A DNA stretch of 64,000 nt from a virus (lineage: Duplodnaviria; Heunggongvirae; Uroviricota; Caudoviricetes): positions 1-64,000 of IMG/VR virus record IMGVR_UViG_3300045996_002451. The stretch is one strand, 5' to 3'. Below, piece after piece: positions 32,092 to 40,384 of this stretch (positions are counted from its first letter, which is position 1; the number at the start of each line of letters is the position of its first letter). The position numbers and the translations under genes were made by a program. Below the pieces are notes generated by a model. It made no database searches. It saw only the letters and a list, made by a program, of their open reading frames with translations, and was not told the DNA's origin.

Positions 32092-33675
32092 TTAGGCAAC
32101 GGGCAGTTCTTCGAGGCGATGACCATACTGCGCGTGTAGCCAGCGAAGTCCCGTCTCAGTATCACTGAAGTCACCGTTGAGCTGCGCTTCGTAGGCTGCC
32201 GCCACCGCTTCTCCGATGTGGGGACCGCCCTTGTACTCGAAGTAAGGCATCACGTGCCGTCCGAGTACCAGTTTGGCGGGCGGCTCGTAGTAGACGTTCA
32301 GCTTTTCGGCTAGCTCCAGCATGAAGAACGCGGCTACCGGCATCCCGGTTGGCAGCGGCGGTCGACCGCTGGCGTCTGCTTCCATCAGCCACGCAAGCAT
32401 CTGGATGTTGGCCGGAGCCAGGCGCTTGGCCAGACGACGCACCACTGTCTCTGGTCGATCGCTGTTCAGGATGTCCCGGTGGGCCAGGTGATCCTCAACC
32501 AATGGTACTACCTGCGCGGTGATCTGCGGATGCATCTTGGTGATCCCGATCCGGTCCAGGAACCGCTGGGCGATGGGACCGCCTGCGCGTTCATGCCCGT
32601 GACTGGTCCAGCGCAGCTTGCCCTTTTTCTCCAGTTGCGCGGTGACTACCGGCTTGGCGAAGTCGTGACAGAGGGCGGAAAACACGAGTACCGCCCTGGC
32701 TTCGGGTTCCAACTTTTCGCGGATAGCGATGTTGTTGGCCGCATCCACGACGTACCGGGTGTGCCGGTAGACATCCCCTTCGGGATGCCACTCCGGGTCT
32801 TGTGGGCACCCATACATCCGGCGCAGTTCTGGGTAGAAAACGTCCCAGAGCGTGCTGGACAAGAACTCCAGTCCGAGGGAAGGACGGGTGCTCTTGGTGG
32901 CCCACTTCAGCCATTCTTCCGCTACTCGTTCCCGAGAGACACAGCGCCCTTTGTCGGTGAGTCGACTGAGGGCGAGGTAGTCGCCGGTGGCACGGTAGAA
33001 GTTGCGCCCGTGCCAGGTCTTTAACTCCGGGTATGCTCCCAGTTCCGGATCCGGCGCATCCTCGCGATACCGCTGGCGGATCTGGATGCCCAGGTTGTTG
33101 AGCAGATCCTCGGTCTGCACCTCGACGTCCCAACCAAAGCGGGAAACGAACTGCATCCCGCGTAGGGCCCGTAGTGGATCGTCCGCGAAGAGGTTCATGT
33201 CTACTGCACGCAGCAGGCCTTGCTGGATGTCTTCGACCCCGTCAAAGAAGTCGAGTAGCTCTCCGGTGAGAGGATCAAACAGGAGCGCGTTACACGTGTA
33301 ATCGCGCCGCCGACAGGCTTCGCTAGGAAGCATCTGAGGATCGTACTCGACTACATAGTCGTGGCGGGTCGGATCGTTGCCCTGCCTGCTGTCTTTACGC
33401 GGTAGGCTGACGTCGTAGGTGGCGCCGTCCACGCGCCACTTGAGGACACCAAAGCTGGAACCTTCCAGTTGGACGGAGCCGGGCTGCTGTTCCAGAAGGT
33501 CCTGAAGAGCTGGAAAAGGGAGGCCGTAGACCTCGACGTCGATGTCCTTGGGTTCGAGTCCTAGGAGGGCGTCGCGGACACAGCCTCCGACCAGGTAGCC
33601 CTGAAGGCCTCTAGCCTTCAGGTCCAGTAGGAACTTCCGGAGTTGGGACGTCACCGGGATCTTTAGGGTCTGCAT
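32092..33675 (-). CDS. cca: tRNA nucleotidyltransferase (CCA-adding/poly(A) polymerase family) with HD domain
   Basis: LVGGCVRD, DIDVE, RRDYTCNAL, DDPLRALR, HPEGDVYRHT, CHDFAK. Confidence 0.9.
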   Translation of the reverse strand: MQTLKIPVTSQLRKFLLDLKARGLQGYLVGGCVRDALLGLEPKDIDVEVYGLPFPALQDLLEQQPGSVQLEGSSFGVLKWRVDGATYDVSLPRKDSRQGNDPTRHDYVVEYDPQMLPSEACRRRDYTCNALLFDPLTGELLDFFDGVEDIQQGLLRAVDMNLFADDPLRALRGMQFVSRFGWDVEVQTEDLLNNLGIQIRQRYREDAPDPELGAYPELKTWHGRNFYRATGDYLALSRLTDKGRCVSRERVAEEWLKWATKSTRPSLGLEFLSSTLWDVFYPELRRMYGCPQDPEWHPEGDVYRHTRYVVDAANNIAIREKLEPEARAVLVFSALCHDFAKPVVTAQLEKKGKLRWTSHGHERAGGPIAQRFLDRIGITKMHPQITAQVVPLVEDHLAHRDILNSDRPETVVRRLAKRLAPANIQMLAWLMEADASGRPPLPTGMPVAAFFMLELAEKLNVYYEPPAKLVLGRHVMPYFEYKGGPHIGEAVAAAYEAQLNGDFSDTETGLRWLHAQYGHRLEELPVA

Positions 33676-35077: not shown

Positions 35078-36802
35078 CTAGATATTGCCCAGCGCAAATT
35101 GCCCCATGATGTTCGGTGTGGAGGCATCAAAACCCACACAATCGATCATTCCCCGATCTTTGGGATCGGCGATGGTGAACCCGTTCGAGACCATACCGCA
35201 CACGATCAGCTTGGCGTCGATGCCCATCTTCTCCCGGTACGCGCGCAGGGCCTGGACGGGCTGTACCGGTCCAGCGTACGTCTCGGAGTCCGTGTAGACC
35301 ACGAAGACATCGAACGGGATCTTCTTTGCCAGCGCGTAACGCATCGGCAAGGAGCAGTCGGTGGAGCCGAAGGCAAGGTTGTTGACTTCGTTGCATGCAT
35401 CGGTCAGCCGCTGGCGCGGACTGACTTTCAGCTCACTGATCCCATCGATCTCGTCCGCTGTTGCGCGGTTACGCGCGTAGTAACCCCGGCTGCCTGCGGT
35501 GAAGCCCGTGATCATGTACTGGTCTTCGACGTTTGCCGTGACCAAGGCCATCGCCACGGAGCCCACGCGCGGGGAGAGCCCCTGCACGCCGCCGCACATT
35601 CCACCCGTCATCGAGCCCGAGACGTCCAGGGCCAGCATCCACCGCTTGCCGGTCGGCTCCACGTTCTTGAACGCCAGGTAGAACGCCTTGTCCAGTCCGT
35701 CCACGATCTGACGCACAGGAGACCAGACGTTGTCCCCTTTCAGGGATCTGCCGGACTCGTACGTCTTCATCGCAGTGAGCACGGCGATCGGATGGATCCG
35801 CGAAGCCGCCAGTCCTGCCGGATCGGTCAGCTTGTTCACCACGAACTTGGTGGCGTCGGACATCGGTCCCAGGACTCCGTAGCGGGTCATGTTCGCCAGG
35901 TTGCGCAGCATCGCCGTAAGACCCATCTCCGGCAGCAAGGCCTCCCAGACAGCCGGGCTGGTCTTGTACTGCGTCGGGATGCACTCGTGCGGCAGCCGGA
36001 ACTCCTTGAGGACCGTGATCACGTCCTTTTCGGTCGGTACCCGCTTGATCAGCTCGAAGCCCCGGATCATATCCGGCAGGTGCTGCGAAAGATCTTCGTA
36101 CATCACCGCACCGGTGGACAGCTCGCTGCCGCACTTGACGCCCTTCTTGCGCGAGACCGTACGCGTACCGAGATCGCCGCCCACGGACCAACGCATCGCC
36201 GCGTCCTTGCTCTTGCTCTCCGTGATCGGATGCGCGAGGCGCAAGACGTCGCGATGGCTCCAGCCGTCCCGCTGCTGATACTTGATCAACTGCAGGGCGA
36301 GGGAGTTGTCCGAGCGCTCCGTGTACCAGTTGGCCACGGCACGTCGCAGTCCTCGACCCCAGCCGCGCATGCCATCGACGTGCTCGCAGAACTGGAACAG
36401 GTGGGTGCCGATGCGACATACCTTGGGTAGTGCCGAGAGGGCAGCCGCCCGGGTCGGGTCGTCGCCATAGCTGGCCGCGATCGCCAGGACGAAGATCGCC
36501 TGGTCGTTCTTGGGTGCTCGCGCCTGATCCGAGACTTCCGTCACGATCTGTACGGTCCGGAGACCATCCGCCTTGACGCACTCCTGTGCCGCCTTCGCGT
36601 TCTCCAGGGTCAGCTTCTGCTGCGTGGCGTAGTAGGAACCGCCTTCACTTCCCAGGATGAGGAAGCGCTGGAGGCGGGTCCAGCAATCCACGCCAAAGAC
36701 GACGCCTCCGGCACTGTTGGGGACCATGTCGGCTTCTCGGCCCGGGATCGCCCGCGTCTGCGGCGTCTTCTTGCTGCTCAATGTACCCTTCAGATAACTC
36801 AT
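35078..36802 (-). CDS. rsr: Ro60 / Rsr TROVE-domain RNA-binding protein
   Basis: NSAGGVVF, RLQRFLILGSEGGSYY, GWGRGLRRAV, KYQQRDGWSHRDVLRLAHP, TAMLRNL, vWA LDVSGSM, VYTDSET. Confidence 0.97.
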   Translation of the reverse strand: MSYLKGTLSSKKTPQTRAIPGREADMVPNSAGGVVFGVDCWTRLQRFLILGSEGGSYYATQQKLTLENAKAAQECVKADGLRTVQIVTEVSDQARAPKNDQAIFVLAIAASYGDDPTRAAALSALPKVCRIGTHLFQFCEHVDGMRGWGRGLRRAVANWYTERSDNSLALQLIKYQQRDGWSHRDVLRLAHPITESKSKDAAMRWSVGGDLGTRTVSRKKGVKCGSELSTGAVMYEDLSQHLPDMIRGFELIKRVPTEKDVITVLKEFRLPHECIPTQYKTSPAVWEALLPEMGLTAMLRNLANMTRYGVLGPMSDATKFVVNKLTDPAGLAASRIHPIAVLTAMKTYESGRSLKGDNVWSPVRQIVDGLDKAFYLAFKNVEPTGKRWMLALDVSGSMTGGMCGGVQGLSPRVGSVAMALVTANVEDQYMITGFTAGSRGYYARNRATADEIDGISELKVSPRQRLTDACNEVNNLAFGSTDCSLPMRYALAKKIPFDVFVVYTDSETYAGPVQPVQALRAYREKMGIDAKLIVCGMVSNGFTIADPKDRGMIDCVGFDASTPNIMGQFALGNI

Positions 36803-36864
36803 TGCACACTCTCTTTCGGCCCGTTTACGGGCGTTACACGTGTATCACACGTCATACAACACTA

Positions 36865-37019
36865 CAGGGGAGGTAGGAGTCGAACCTACACGACACACTG
36901 CCAAGTCGTTATCTCAACAGTAGCAGACGGGAAAGCTAACGACACTCGACCGTACTGCTTATTACCGTGTCTGACCCAGGGTTGGTCCACTGGCGCTCTG
37001 ACCATTAAGCTACTCCCCT
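36865..37019 (-). ncRNA. tRNA-like RNA with ~80-nt insert in variable-arm position (possible Y module)
   Basis: AGGGGAG/CTCCCCT acceptor, canonical D and T arms; insert GACAC...GGTCGAGTGTCGTTA...TAACGACTTGGC...GTGTC. Confidence 0.7.
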
Positions 37020-37221: not shown

Positions 37222-37258
37222 TGCTTAACTTAGTGGTCTCCACTGAGTTAAGGGGGGC

Positions 37259-37331
37259 CGATCGTGGTAGGAGTTGAACCTACGACCTCCAGGTGTACAT
37301 CCTGGCGCTCTACCAACTGAGCTACACGATC
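37259..37331 (-). tRNA. atypical tRNA, GTA anticodon (Tyr-like; short variable loop, A32, C37)
   Basis: full cloverleaf GATCGTG/CACGATC, CCAGG-ATGTACA-CCTGG; no encoded CCA. Confidence 0.7.
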
Positions 37332-37335
37332 GACA

Positions 37336-37404
37336 TTAGGACAGGCAAGTTGATTGAAGTGGGGAGTTCATGCGAGATAACCCACCTCATTCGGCCCGTC
37401 TTAA
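37336..37404 (-). ncRNA. short Y RNA-like (Ro60-binding helix)
   Basis: GACGGGCCGAATG...GGGTTATC...ACTTGCCTGTC, bulged C. Confidence 0.75.
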
Positions 37405-38092: not shown

Positions 38093-38236
38093 CGCCAGGG
38101 GATGGACTCGAACCACCGACCCGTAGTGTATGGTAACCTTCAAACGCCGACCCCGACCAGGGTAGTTAGCCCTCGCTGAGATAAGTGTGTAAGAAGACAT
38201 GTTGGACTGCTGCTCTACCAACTGAGCTACCCTGGC
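38093..38236 (-). ncRNA. tRNA with circularly permuted Y module in anticodon arm
   Basis: GCCAGGG/CCCTGGC, canonical D and T arms; insert TCTTC..ACTTATCTC-hairpin-GGGGTCGG..GAAGGTTACC. Confidence 0.7.
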
Positions 38237-38242
38237 AAGGGA

Positions 38243-38309
38243 GTCCGGGCAAGTGGTTGCGGCGAGGGGTGTTACTTGAAAGGGTAACCCTCATTGCTCC
38301 GGCCCGAAC
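38243..38309 (-). ncRNA. short Y RNA-like
   Basis: GTTCGGGCCGGAG...GGGTTACC...ACTTGCCCGGAC. Confidence 0.75.
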
Positions 38310-38315
38310 AAAAAC

Positions 38316-39163: not shown

Positions 39164-39221
39164 GGAAACCTCCGTTCAGGTAAAAGATTACGAACTGCTC
39201 AGGTTACCCGAGCGTGGTTAG

Positions 39222-39341
39222 GTGGGGAAGCAGGAATCGAACCTGCGTCTCGATCTCCTCAAGATAAACCTTCAACACCGGCCCATTGCTGGACAAAAAA
39301 GAAGAAGGGTTTACGCGCCTTGCCACTAGGCCATTCCCCAC
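39222..39341 (-). ncRNA. tRNA with circularly permuted Y module in anticodon arm
   Basis: GTGGGGAA/TTCCCCAC, D and T arms; TAAACCCTTC..TTGTCCA-GCAA-TGGGCCGG..GAAGGTTTA. Confidence 0.8.
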
Positions 39342-39552: not shown

Positions 39553-39625
39553 GAGCGGGAGAGGGACTTGAACCCTCAGTCTTTGGGTTATGAGCCCAAC
39601 GTTTTACCAATTACACTATCCCGCA
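39553..39625 (-). tRNA. tRNA-Met(CAT), initiator-like
   Basis: unpaired 1:72, TTGGG-CTCATAA-CCCAA with three consecutive G-C pairs; no encoded CCA. Confidence 0.88.
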
Positions 39626-40248: not shown

Positions 40249-40384
40249 TAGATGGACAAGGAGTTTTTGTTTGGGGGTTAGGTGGGACTCGAACCCACAA
40301 CCTCCGGGCTATGCACCCGGCGCTCTACCGATTGAGCTACTCGTGCAGTGTGAGCGCGATAACCCAAACAACACGGCCCATCTA
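40249..40384 (-). ncRNA. Y RNA whose effector domain is a D-anticodon-T tRNA body attached at the acceptor end
   Basis: TAGATGGGCCG..TTGTTTGGGTTATC..D arm..CCGGG-TGCATAG-CCCGG..T arm..CCCAAACAA..CTTGTCCATCTA. Confidence 0.8.

What the first reader, a model, noticed from the sequence alone, without database searches (positions are those of the whole stretch)
40249..40384. Y helix continuous with the acceptor end of a tRNA body that keeps an anticodon loop (CAT)
TAGATGGGCCG/CTTGTCCATCTA and TTGTTTGGG/CCCAAACAA enclose a canonical D arm, a 5-bp stem with loop TGCATAG, AGGTT and a canonical T arm. It cannot be charged as drawn, but it displays an anticodon loop. Inference: a Ro60-tethered decoy for anticodon-directed toxins (e.g. 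VapC-type tRNA-fMet nucleases). A real fMet-like tRNA lies 0.6 kb downstream.
Basis: partly seen in the sequence, partly recalled or inferred. Interest (0 to 1): 0.82.

Follow-up and report, generated by a model that had tools for sequence, protein, structure and literature searches.

The report
Phage Y RNA carrying tRNA mimic
This 136-base stretch of a giant phage encodes a small RNA that joins the stem recognised by the RNA-quality-control protein Ro60 to a nearly complete tRNA look-alike in normal tRNA strand order. That is a little-described variant of a known RNA class; a role as a decoy for tRNA-cutting toxins is not shown.

Summary
On the minus strand, 40384-40249 has two flanking helices around a tRNA-like D arm, a 5-bp stem with a 7-nt loop, a 5-nt variable loop and a T arm. 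It lies 3.4 kb upstream of, and on the same strand as, a Ro60/Rsr gene (35078-36802). It is one of six copies of the same Y-helix 5' motif in that gap.

It belongs to a conserved family: at least 15 members aligned (about 24 distinct counting a metagenome clade), in phages including mycobacteriophages Myrna and Phabba and beside rsr in Myxococcota and Chloroflexota. All helices covary. The tertiary 15:48 pair covaries in 15 of 15.

Rfam's YrlA model does not match. YrlA is circularly permuted; this RNA keeps native tRNA order, as modelled for Deinococcus Yrn1.

The "anticodon" loop is the least conserved part: 3-9 nt, some GNRA-type. CAU recurs in only 4 members of one subgroup, and this copy has G33 instead of U33. 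The decoy idea is therefore not supported, though not excluded.

Best reading: a Ro60-partner Y RNA with a tRNA-mimic effector module. Earlier scan notes describe native-order Y RNAs on other DNA.

The parts
40249..40384 (-). Whole predicted Y RNA (136 nt) with a native-order tRNA-like module
   Evidence: Model R1 scores it 124.3 bits over all 136 positions. Homologs are aligned in A4 and A5.
40374..40384 (-). Lower Y helix, 5' strand, carrying the conserved GGGCCG motif; C40375 is bulged
   Evidence: This motif occurs 6 times in the window, all on the minus strand between 37376 and 41461, against 0.25 expected. Covariation is shown.
40249..40259 (-). Lower Y helix, 3' strand
   Evidence: It pairs with 40374-40384. 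The helix is 90% paired over 15 members, and 4 of its pairs change on both sides.
40363..40371 (-). Upper Y helix, 5' strand, running into the conserved GGUUAUC motif (40358-40365)
   Evidence: Every member has a 9-11 bp duplex of different sequence. 6 of its 8 pairs change on both sides.
40267..40275 (-). Upper Y helix, 3' strand
40341..40359 (-). P3 hairpin: 5 pairs plus one C.A mismatch, with a 7-nt loop. It is the closed acceptor-stem equivalent and ends one base before U8.
   Evidence: RNAalifold predicted it independently. All 6 pairs change on both sides, and about 89-90% of cells are paired.
40280..40281 (-). 3' side of a 2-bp acceptor stub (pairs with G40340 and A40341). It overlaps P3, so the two are alternatives.
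   Evidence: The pair next to the T stem is G-C in 10 of 10. The next pair covaries (GC 6, AU 3, UA 1). Further out there is no pairing.
40322..40337 (-). D arm, with A14, A15, G18 G19 and A21
   Evidence: tRNA model alignment. The stem is invariant in 15 members.
40304..40320 (-). Anticodon-like arm: 5-bp stem and 7-nt loop (40309-40315), with CAU at 40311-40313, G at position 33 and A at position 37
   Evidence: The stem covaries. Loop length and sequence are not conserved.
40299..40303 (-). Variable loop; its last base, U48, forms the Levitt pair with A15
   Evidence: The 15:48 pair is A:U in 5 and G:C in 10 of 15 members, with no exceptions.
40282..40298 (-). T arm with a canonical UUCGA loop
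35078..36802 (-). Ro60/Rsr gene, the presumed protein partner
   Evidence: Pfam TROVE 2.1e-45 and vWA_Ro60 1.7e-56.

Best explanation
The element is a phage-encoded Y RNA, that is, a small non-coding partner RNA of the phage's Ro60/Rsr protein.

Its 5' and 3' ends pair into the bulged helix that Ro60 recognises. Its distal effector module is a nearly complete tRNA mimic in native tRNA strand order:
- a closed acceptor-like hairpin (P3);
- a D arm;
- a 5-bp anticodon-like arm;
- a variable loop;
- a T arm.

The Y stem emerges between the T arm and the acceptor-like hairpin.

Inferred mechanism, by analogy with Yrn1, YrlA and phage phiLo Yrl RNAs: Ro60 binds the stem, and the L-shaped tRNA-like head docks or tethers a tRNA-recognising or RNA-degrading factor. 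Candidates are host PNPase, RNase P, tRNA-modifying enzymes or the CCA-adding enzyme. The head may also gate access of misfolded RNAs to Ro60.

Shown here: the anatomy, its conservation and covariation, and its linkage to Ro60. Inferred: Ro60 binding, the effector, and the biological role.
For: - Context. A Ro60 gene lies 3.4 kb downstream on the same strand. The same 5'-strand motif occurs 6 times, only in the gap upstream of rsr and only on that strand, against 0.25 expected.
- Homologs. The same topology is found in 9-10 phage contigs and beside rsr in Myxococcota and Chloroflexota MAGs. Every record checked encodes Ro60.
- Covariation. In A4, 87.9% of cells are paired against 71.6% in shuffles. 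21 pairs change on both sides. 0 of 500 shuffles reach the observed values. Slid controls give 34-50%. The result is the same for 15 members, including ones my pattern did not select.
- tRNA fold. The tRNA model scores 45.3 bits. The tertiary Levitt pair 15:48 covaries in 15 of 15.
- Literature. Bacterial and phage Y RNAs have tRNA-like effector modules (PMC4201824; 10.1101/312249). A phage Ro60 binds phage Yrl RNAs and host PNPase (PMC12135203).
Against:
- No promoter or terminator consensus brackets the element.
- The 5' motif reads GCCGUG rather than the published GNCGAA(N)G.
- The nearest-neighbour MFE (-55.4 kcal/mol) prefers an alternative pairing of the D-stem region over the cloverleaf model (-46.1).
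- Most family members were first ascertained with a pattern that fixes three motifs. Conservation of those motifs is therefore partly by construction.
- Alignments A4 and A5 are fitted to the model.
Confidence: 0.8

Rival explanations
1. One reading: Ro60 displays the anticodon-like arm (CAU, with an initiator-like GGG/CCC stem). The arm acts as a decoy or sink for anticodon-directed nucleases such as VapC-type tRNA-fMet cutters.
For: - This copy has a 7-nt loop with CAU and A37, and three G-C pairs at the loop end of the stem.
- CAU also sits at the centre of the loop in three Myxococcota members of the same A15:U48 subgroup, although their stems and loop flanks have diverged.
- Near-identical Myrna and Phabba copies differ mainly in this loop. 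That could reflect fast evolution.
Against: - Loop length ranges from 3 to 9 nt. Sequence is unconserved across about 24 members, and some loops are GNRA-type tetraloops.
- CAU is present in only 4 members. Three of them are related bacteria, so they are not independent.
- This copy has G33, U32 and G38, where initiator tRNA has U33, C32 and A38.
- No nuclease, toxin or repair gene points to this role. RtcB is absent from the phage.
Confidence: 0.08
2. It is a decayed or unusual tRNA gene or precursor. A tRNA-sized RNA is cut out, and the Y-like flanks are leader and trailer. Database annotators treated the homologs this way.
For: - The Myrna homolog is annotated 'tRNA-OTHER, Sup TTA' and the Phabba homolog 'tRNA-Ser'. 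Both lie inside tRNA arrays.
- The tRNA model gives 45.3 bits.
- M. smegmatis YrlA is cut by RNase P (PMC4201824).
Against: - Only 3 of 7 acceptor positions can pair. There is no free end or CCA, and ARAGORN finds no tRNA.
- The flanking helices and P3 are conserved with compensatory changes across phages and bacteria. That is not expected of leaders and trailers.
- The flanks carry the Ro60-helix motif and are linked to rsr.
Confidence: 0.07
3. Two-piece tRNA. RNase P cuts in the P3 loop and leaves a nicked, Ro60-bound molecule with a free acceptor end. That end could take CCA or be charged.
For: - In four lineages (L016, Myrna/Phabba, L303 and perhaps L018) the 5' strand of P3 is followed directly by NCCA. 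In Myrna P3 is 7 bp.
- The phage encodes a CCA-adding-type enzyme at 32092-33675.
Against: - The window copy has no CCA after P3. Its P3 has only 5 pairs plus a mismatch.
- S. Typhimurium YrlA, with a 6-bp stem, is not cleaved (PMC4201824).
Confidence: 0.03

Closest known systems
Deinococcus radiodurans Yrn1 (Y RNA 1), as modelled by Chen et al. 2014 (PMC4201824)
   Same: - It is a partner of Ro60/Rsr and is encoded upstream of rsr on the same strand.
- The Ro-binding stem is formed by the RNA's two ends.
- The effector module is read in native order: D-like, then an anticodon-like 5-bp stem-loop, then the T arm.
   Different: - Yrn1 has no clear D arm and no variable loop, and its tRNA likeness is described as weak.
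- This family has a canonical D arm, a 5-nt variable loop, a covarying Levitt pair and an extra closed acceptor-like hairpin.
- Sequence homology to Yrn1 was not tested.
YrlA (Rfam RF02553; structure PDB 6CU1, 10.1101/312249)
   Same: - It is a Ro60-linked Y RNA.
- It has a tRNA-like elbow with D and T arms.
- Its acceptor-like stem is closed by a loop.
- It uses the same 15:48 covariation logic.
- It occurs in phages as well as bacteria.
   Different: - YrlA is circularly permuted: T arm, then acceptor hairpin, then D arm.
- Its Y stem continues the anticodon stem, and it has no anticodon loop.
- Here the order is native, the Y stem leaves between the T arm and the acceptor-like hairpin, and an anticodon-like stem-loop is kept.
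- The Rfam model gives only 10.9- and 9.9-bit fragments, against a cut-off of 69.
Canonical tRNA (RF00005), including the phage's own initiator-like tRNA-Met at 39553-39625
   Same: - It shares the D arm, a 17-nt anticodon arm, a 5-nt variable loop, the T arm and the tertiary-pair nucleotides.
- The local match is 45.3 bits.
   Different: - There is no 7-bp acceptor stem, no free ends and no CCA.
- It has G33.
- It is embedded in a 136-nt RNA closed by Y helices.
Minimal Y RNAs, nematode sbRNAs and phage phiLo Yrl1/Yrl2 (PMC12135203)
   Same: - They share the bulged Ro-binding helix followed by a UUAUC-type motif.
- A mini-Y in this same locus (37338-37403) passes the Rfam sbRNA cut-off.
   Different: They have no tRNA-like module.

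Membership tests
Y RNA (Ro60-partner ncRNA class) | The 5' and 3' ends pair into a long stem that contains the conserved bulged Ro60-binding helix | tested here: met
   The lower helix has a bulged C and the GGGCCG motif, and there is an upper helix. Both covary in 10-15 homologs. The motif is enriched only upstream of rsr. The 5' motif deviates from the published GNCGAA(N)G; it reads GCCGUG.
Y RNA (Ro60-partner ncRNA class) | Encoded near a Ro60 ortholog, usually upstream on the same strand | tested here: met
   rsr lies at 35078-36802 on the minus strand. Homologs are next to, or in the same genome as, Ro60.
Y RNA (Ro60-partner ncRNA class) | Physically bound and stabilised by Ro60 | not testable with these tools
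   This needs RIP, EMSA or a similar binding assay.
YrlA (Rfam RF02553) | Matches the family covariance model at or above the gathering score of 69 bits | tested here: not met
   Only fragments match: 10.9 bits on the T arm and 9.9 bits on the D arm. There was no hit at E<=10 in the regional scan.
YrlA (Rfam RF02553) | Permuted order (T arm, closed acceptor stem, D arm) with the Y stem continuing the anticodon stem and no anticodon loop | tested here: not met
   The order here is P3, D, anticodon-like arm, variable loop, T arm.
YrlA (Rfam RF02553) | tRNA-like elbow with conserved tertiary-interaction nucleotides, including a covarying 15:48 pair | tested here: met
   15:48 is A:U or G:C in 15 of 15 members. 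G18 G19 and the UUCGA T loop are present.
Yrn1-type arrangement (D. radiodurans) | Native order of D-like, anticodon-like and T stem-loops between the two Y-stem strands | tested here: met
Yrn1-type arrangement (D. radiodurans) | Sequence homology to Yrn1, and tethering of PNPase | not tested
   No Yrn1 sequence was compared. PNPase binding needs experiments.
tRNA (RF00005) | 7-bp acceptor stem with free 5' and 3' ends and a discriminator/CCA | tested here: not met
   3 of 7 positions can pair. The model match is local, covering positions 6-65. ARAGORN is negative.
tRNA (RF00005) | 7-nt anticodon loop with U33 and a purine at position 37 | tested here: inconclusive
   The loop is 7 nt with A37, but has G at position 33. 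Homolog loops are 3-9 nt.

The most novel reading that the evidence does not exclude
In the A15:U48 subgroup (this phage plus Myxococcota rsr loci) the CAU-centred anticodon-like arm is under selection and is the working end of the RNA. Ro60 would then present a Met/fMet-like anticodon stem-loop to an anticodon-reading factor, which could be a nuclease, a CAU-modifying enzyme or the ribosome, acting as a tethered decoy or sensor. In relatives that carry NCCA after P3, the RNA could become a nicked, CCA-ended tRNA bound to Ro60.
Probability: 0.1. Interest if true: 0.8.

Novelty: new variant of a known kind. Interest (0 to 1): 0.45.

Why it matters
- Y RNAs with tRNA-like heads are known, but the curated model (YrlA) covers only the circularly permuted form.
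- This family keeps native tRNA order and an anticodon-like arm, and it is missed by Rfam. In well-studied phages (Myrna, Phabba) it is annotated as a suppressor or Ser tRNA.
- Recognising it corrects those annotations.
- It shows that Ro60 partners attach the same handle to a tRNA fold at different points.
- It offers a tractable system, Myrna in M. smegmatis, for asking what the tRNA-like head recruits.

Tried and rejected
- Rfam YrlA model on the element: only fragments matched.
- Megablast of the 4-kb RNA cluster against isolate phages: no match.
- Distant blastn of the element: only ordinary tRNA bodies matched.
- Single-protein Ro60 locus search: one locus, which holds a canonical YrlA and no native-order element.
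- Loose pattern scan without the GGGCCG motif: 79 loci and no convincing new member.
- Whole-genome R1 search of 151 genomes of one bacterial class: hits of 58-66 bits that are probably plain tRNAs with flanks. I did not use these.
- Metagenome pattern scan: mostly ordinary tRNAs with a chance upstream match, plus one real clade with a short spacer and GNRA-capped arm.
- Promoter and terminator scan: nothing brackets the element.
- RtcB search in the phage: none found.
- The R1 hit at 37239-37402 (63.6 bits) is a composite of a self-contained mini-Y and the neighbouring tRNA-Tyr. It is not a second member.
- Supplementary tables of Chen et al. 2014 are not held, and two reviews were not available. 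I therefore cannot rule out that native-order phage elements are listed there.

Full report
**Observation.**
- The feature is on the minus strand. Reading 5' to 3' from 40384 to 40249, the parts are:
  - a lower helix (40384-40374 with 40259-40249, C40375 bulged);
  - an upper helix (40371-40363 with 40275-40267);
  - U8-A9;
  - a canonical D arm (40337-40322);
  - a 5-bp stem with a 7-nt loop (40320-40304, CAU at 40313-40311);
  - a 5-nt variable loop;
  - a canonical T arm (40298-40282).
- The Rfam tRNA model matches 40341-40280 at 45.3 bits, but only positions 6-65. ARAGORN calls nothing there.
- Flank complementarity beats 1995 of 2000 shuffles. The fold z-score is -3.0.

**Context.**
- The window is the first 64 kb of a 211-kb, about 98% complete IMG/VR phage record.
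- A Ro60/Rsr gene lies at 35078-36802 on the same strand (TROVE 2e-45, Ro60 vWA 2e-56). A CCA-adding-type enzyme lies at 32092-33675.
- The 4 kb between rsr and the next gene upstream are essentially ORF-free and packed with tRNAs and tRNA-like RNAs.
- The 5'-strand motif of the Y helix (GGGCCG, spacer, GGUUAUC-like) occurs six times in the window. All six are on the minus strand between 37376 and 41461, against 0.25 expected.
- One neighbour, a minimal stem at 37338-37403, passes the Rfam cut-off of the nematode sbRNA family (41.6 bits against a cut-off of 38), a family of Y RNA relatives. It also scores 26.4 bits on the Y_RNA model.

**Family.**
- A pattern scan of viral contigs found the same arrangement in eight further sequences. 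Most are beside a Ro60 gene.
- I built a covariance model (R1) and searched 80 viral and 80 bacterial Ro60 loci.
  - In viral loci it recovered a member my pattern could not have selected: L111, 78.7 bits, directly upstream of Ro60.
  - In bacterial loci it recovered members beside rsr in Polyangiaceae, Kofleriaceae, Haliangiales, Aggregatilineales, Ardenticatenaceae and Anaerolineae MAGs.
- Two members are mycobacteriophages Myrna and Phabba. There the element sits in the tRNA array and is annotated 'tRNA-OTHER, Sup TTA' and 'tRNA-Ser'.
- Every record checked encodes Ro60. In Myrna the gene is 37 kb away.
- A crude regex count over 181 Ro60 loci gave 23 native-order and 71 YrlA-order loci. 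The native order is therefore the minority form.

**Structure.**
- On the 10-sequence alignment A4, 87.9% of cells pair against 71.6% in shuffles. 21 pairs show compensatory change. No shuffle reaches the observed values, and slid controls fall to 34-50%.
- The 15 true members of A5 give 81-100% pairing per helix.
- The undrawn stretch forms hairpin P3. In the window this is 40359-40341, with five pairs and one C.A mismatch.
  - RNAalifold found it unprompted.
  - All six of its pairs change on both sides.
  - It ends one base before U8, where the 5' strand of a tRNA acceptor stem would end.
  - In four lineages its other strand is followed by NCCA.
  - I therefore read P3 as a closed acceptor-stem equivalent, like the 'AS' hairpin of YrlA.
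One of those pairs covaries. These pairs overlap P3, so the junction remains open.
- The tertiary Levitt pair covaries without exception: A15:U48 in 5 members and G15:C48 in 10. This argues that the L-shaped tRNA fold is maintained.
- The nearest-neighbour MFE prefers another pairing of the D-stem region (-55.4 against -46.1 kcal/mol). This is common for tRNAs and is specific to this copy.

**The 'anticodon' loop.**
- The stem covaries, but the loop does not behave like an anticodon loop.
- Loop lengths are 3, 4, 5, 6, 7, 8 and 9 nt. A metagenome clade caps the arm with GNRA-type tetraloops or A-rich hexaloops.
- Myrna and Phabba are otherwise almost identical but differ in this loop.
- CAU is found in four members: the window, L303, L266 and L250. 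All four belong to the A15:U48 subgroup, and two other subgroup members have GAU or CAA at that place.
- CAU therefore looks like a subgroup inheritance, perhaps from a tRNA-Met-like ancestor, and not a family requirement. The window copy also lacks U33.
- This weakens the decoy reading but does not exclude it for the subgroup.

**Comparison with what is known.**
- Chen et al. 2014 (PMC4201824) and Wang et al. 2018 (10.1101/312249) describe YrlA as T arm, closed acceptor stem and D arm, with the Ro-binding stem on the anticodon stem and no anticodon loop. The Rfam model order confirms this. It gives only 10-bit fragments here.
- The same papers model D. radiodurans Yrn1 in the opposite, native orientation with a 5-bp 'anticodon arm'. 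They note that its tRNA likeness is weak.
- The present family has that orientation with a full tRNA elbow and an extra acceptor-like hairpin. I file it as a new variant of the Y RNA kind, not as YrlA and not as a tRNA.
- Phage Ro60 with phage-encoded Y-like RNAs is established (PMC12135203; PMC7824862).
- Earlier notes of this scan report native-order Y RNAs beside rsr in Bacteroidota and two strand orders in a huge phage. I did not test those notes.

**Mechanism.**
- Shown: the anatomy, its conservation and its linkage to Ro60.
- Inferred: Ro60 binds the bulged helix, and the tRNA-like head tethers or occupies a tRNA-recognising or RNA-degrading factor, or gates Ro60.
- The head's partner is unknown. 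The phage has no RtcB, but it does encode a CCA-adding-type enzyme and a very large tRNA set.

**Limits.**
- There is no RNA or binding data.
- Three motifs were fixed by the ascertainment pattern.
- Alignments A4 and A5 are fitted to the model.
- The supplements of Chen et al. 2014 are not held. Prior listing of such phage elements cannot be excluded.

Noticed in passing
window 37338-37403 (-): A minimal Y-type stem just upstream of tRNA-Tyr passes the Rfam gathering score of the nematode sbRNA family RF01656 (41.6 bits against 38). It also scores 26.4 bits on Y_RNA RF00019. A second copy at 38242-38311 scores 21.8 bits.
   Followed up: partly
window 39220-39341 (-): A tRNA-like RNA has paired acceptor ends, D and T arms. 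The anticodon region is replaced by the two Y-helix strands in reversed order, closed by a loop (read). The T arm alone scores with R1.
   Followed up: no
window 38093-38236 (-) and 36865-37019 (-): Two full-length tRNA model matches (42.1 and 41.1 bits) carry inserts of 77 and 79 nt in the anticodon region. These are too short for a group I intron.
   Followed up: no
window 36803-36847 (-): The GGGCCGAA-type Y 5' strand recurs immediately upstream of, and overlapping, the rsr start codon. This could be a Ro60 autoregulatory site.
   Followed up: no
L016:715-760, L025:815-845 (Myrna), L034, L303:2930-2960: In four lineages the 5' strand of the P3 hairpin is followed directly by NCCA, as if an encoded tRNA 3' end had been captured in the loop. 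In Myrna P3 is 7 bp.
   Followed up: partly
L123:4077-4148 (Myrna NC_011273.1 94710-94781): GenBank annotates the tRNA-like core of the Myrna homolog as 'tRNA-OTHER, Sup TTA' and the Phabba homolog as 'tRNA-Ser'. Both are flanked by the Y helices and lack a normal acceptor stem.
   Followed up: yes
G000 contig 73.5-80.7 kb (+), outside the window: A second large cluster of tRNAs and tRNA-like elements gives weak full-length YrlA-model matches, up to 27.8 bits.
   Followed up: no
L289, L247, L272, L317, L254 (bacterial rsr loci): Chloroflexota and Gaiellaceae MAG loci carry 4-7 tRNA-like model hits each, all on the rsr strand within 3 kb of the gene. This suggests arrays of tRNA mimics beside rsr.
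   Followed up: no
L439, L449, L455, L476, L387, L418, L474, L364: A metagenome clade of native-order elements has a very short spacer (no P3) and an anticodon-like arm capped by GNRA-type tetraloops or A-rich hexaloops. Ro60 is on the same strand where the contig is long enough.
   Followed up: partly
window 40352-40357 with 40320-40325 (-): A perfect 6-bp alternative pairing competes with both P3 and the D stem, and it drives the MFE fold. It is not seen in homologs.
   Followed up: partly
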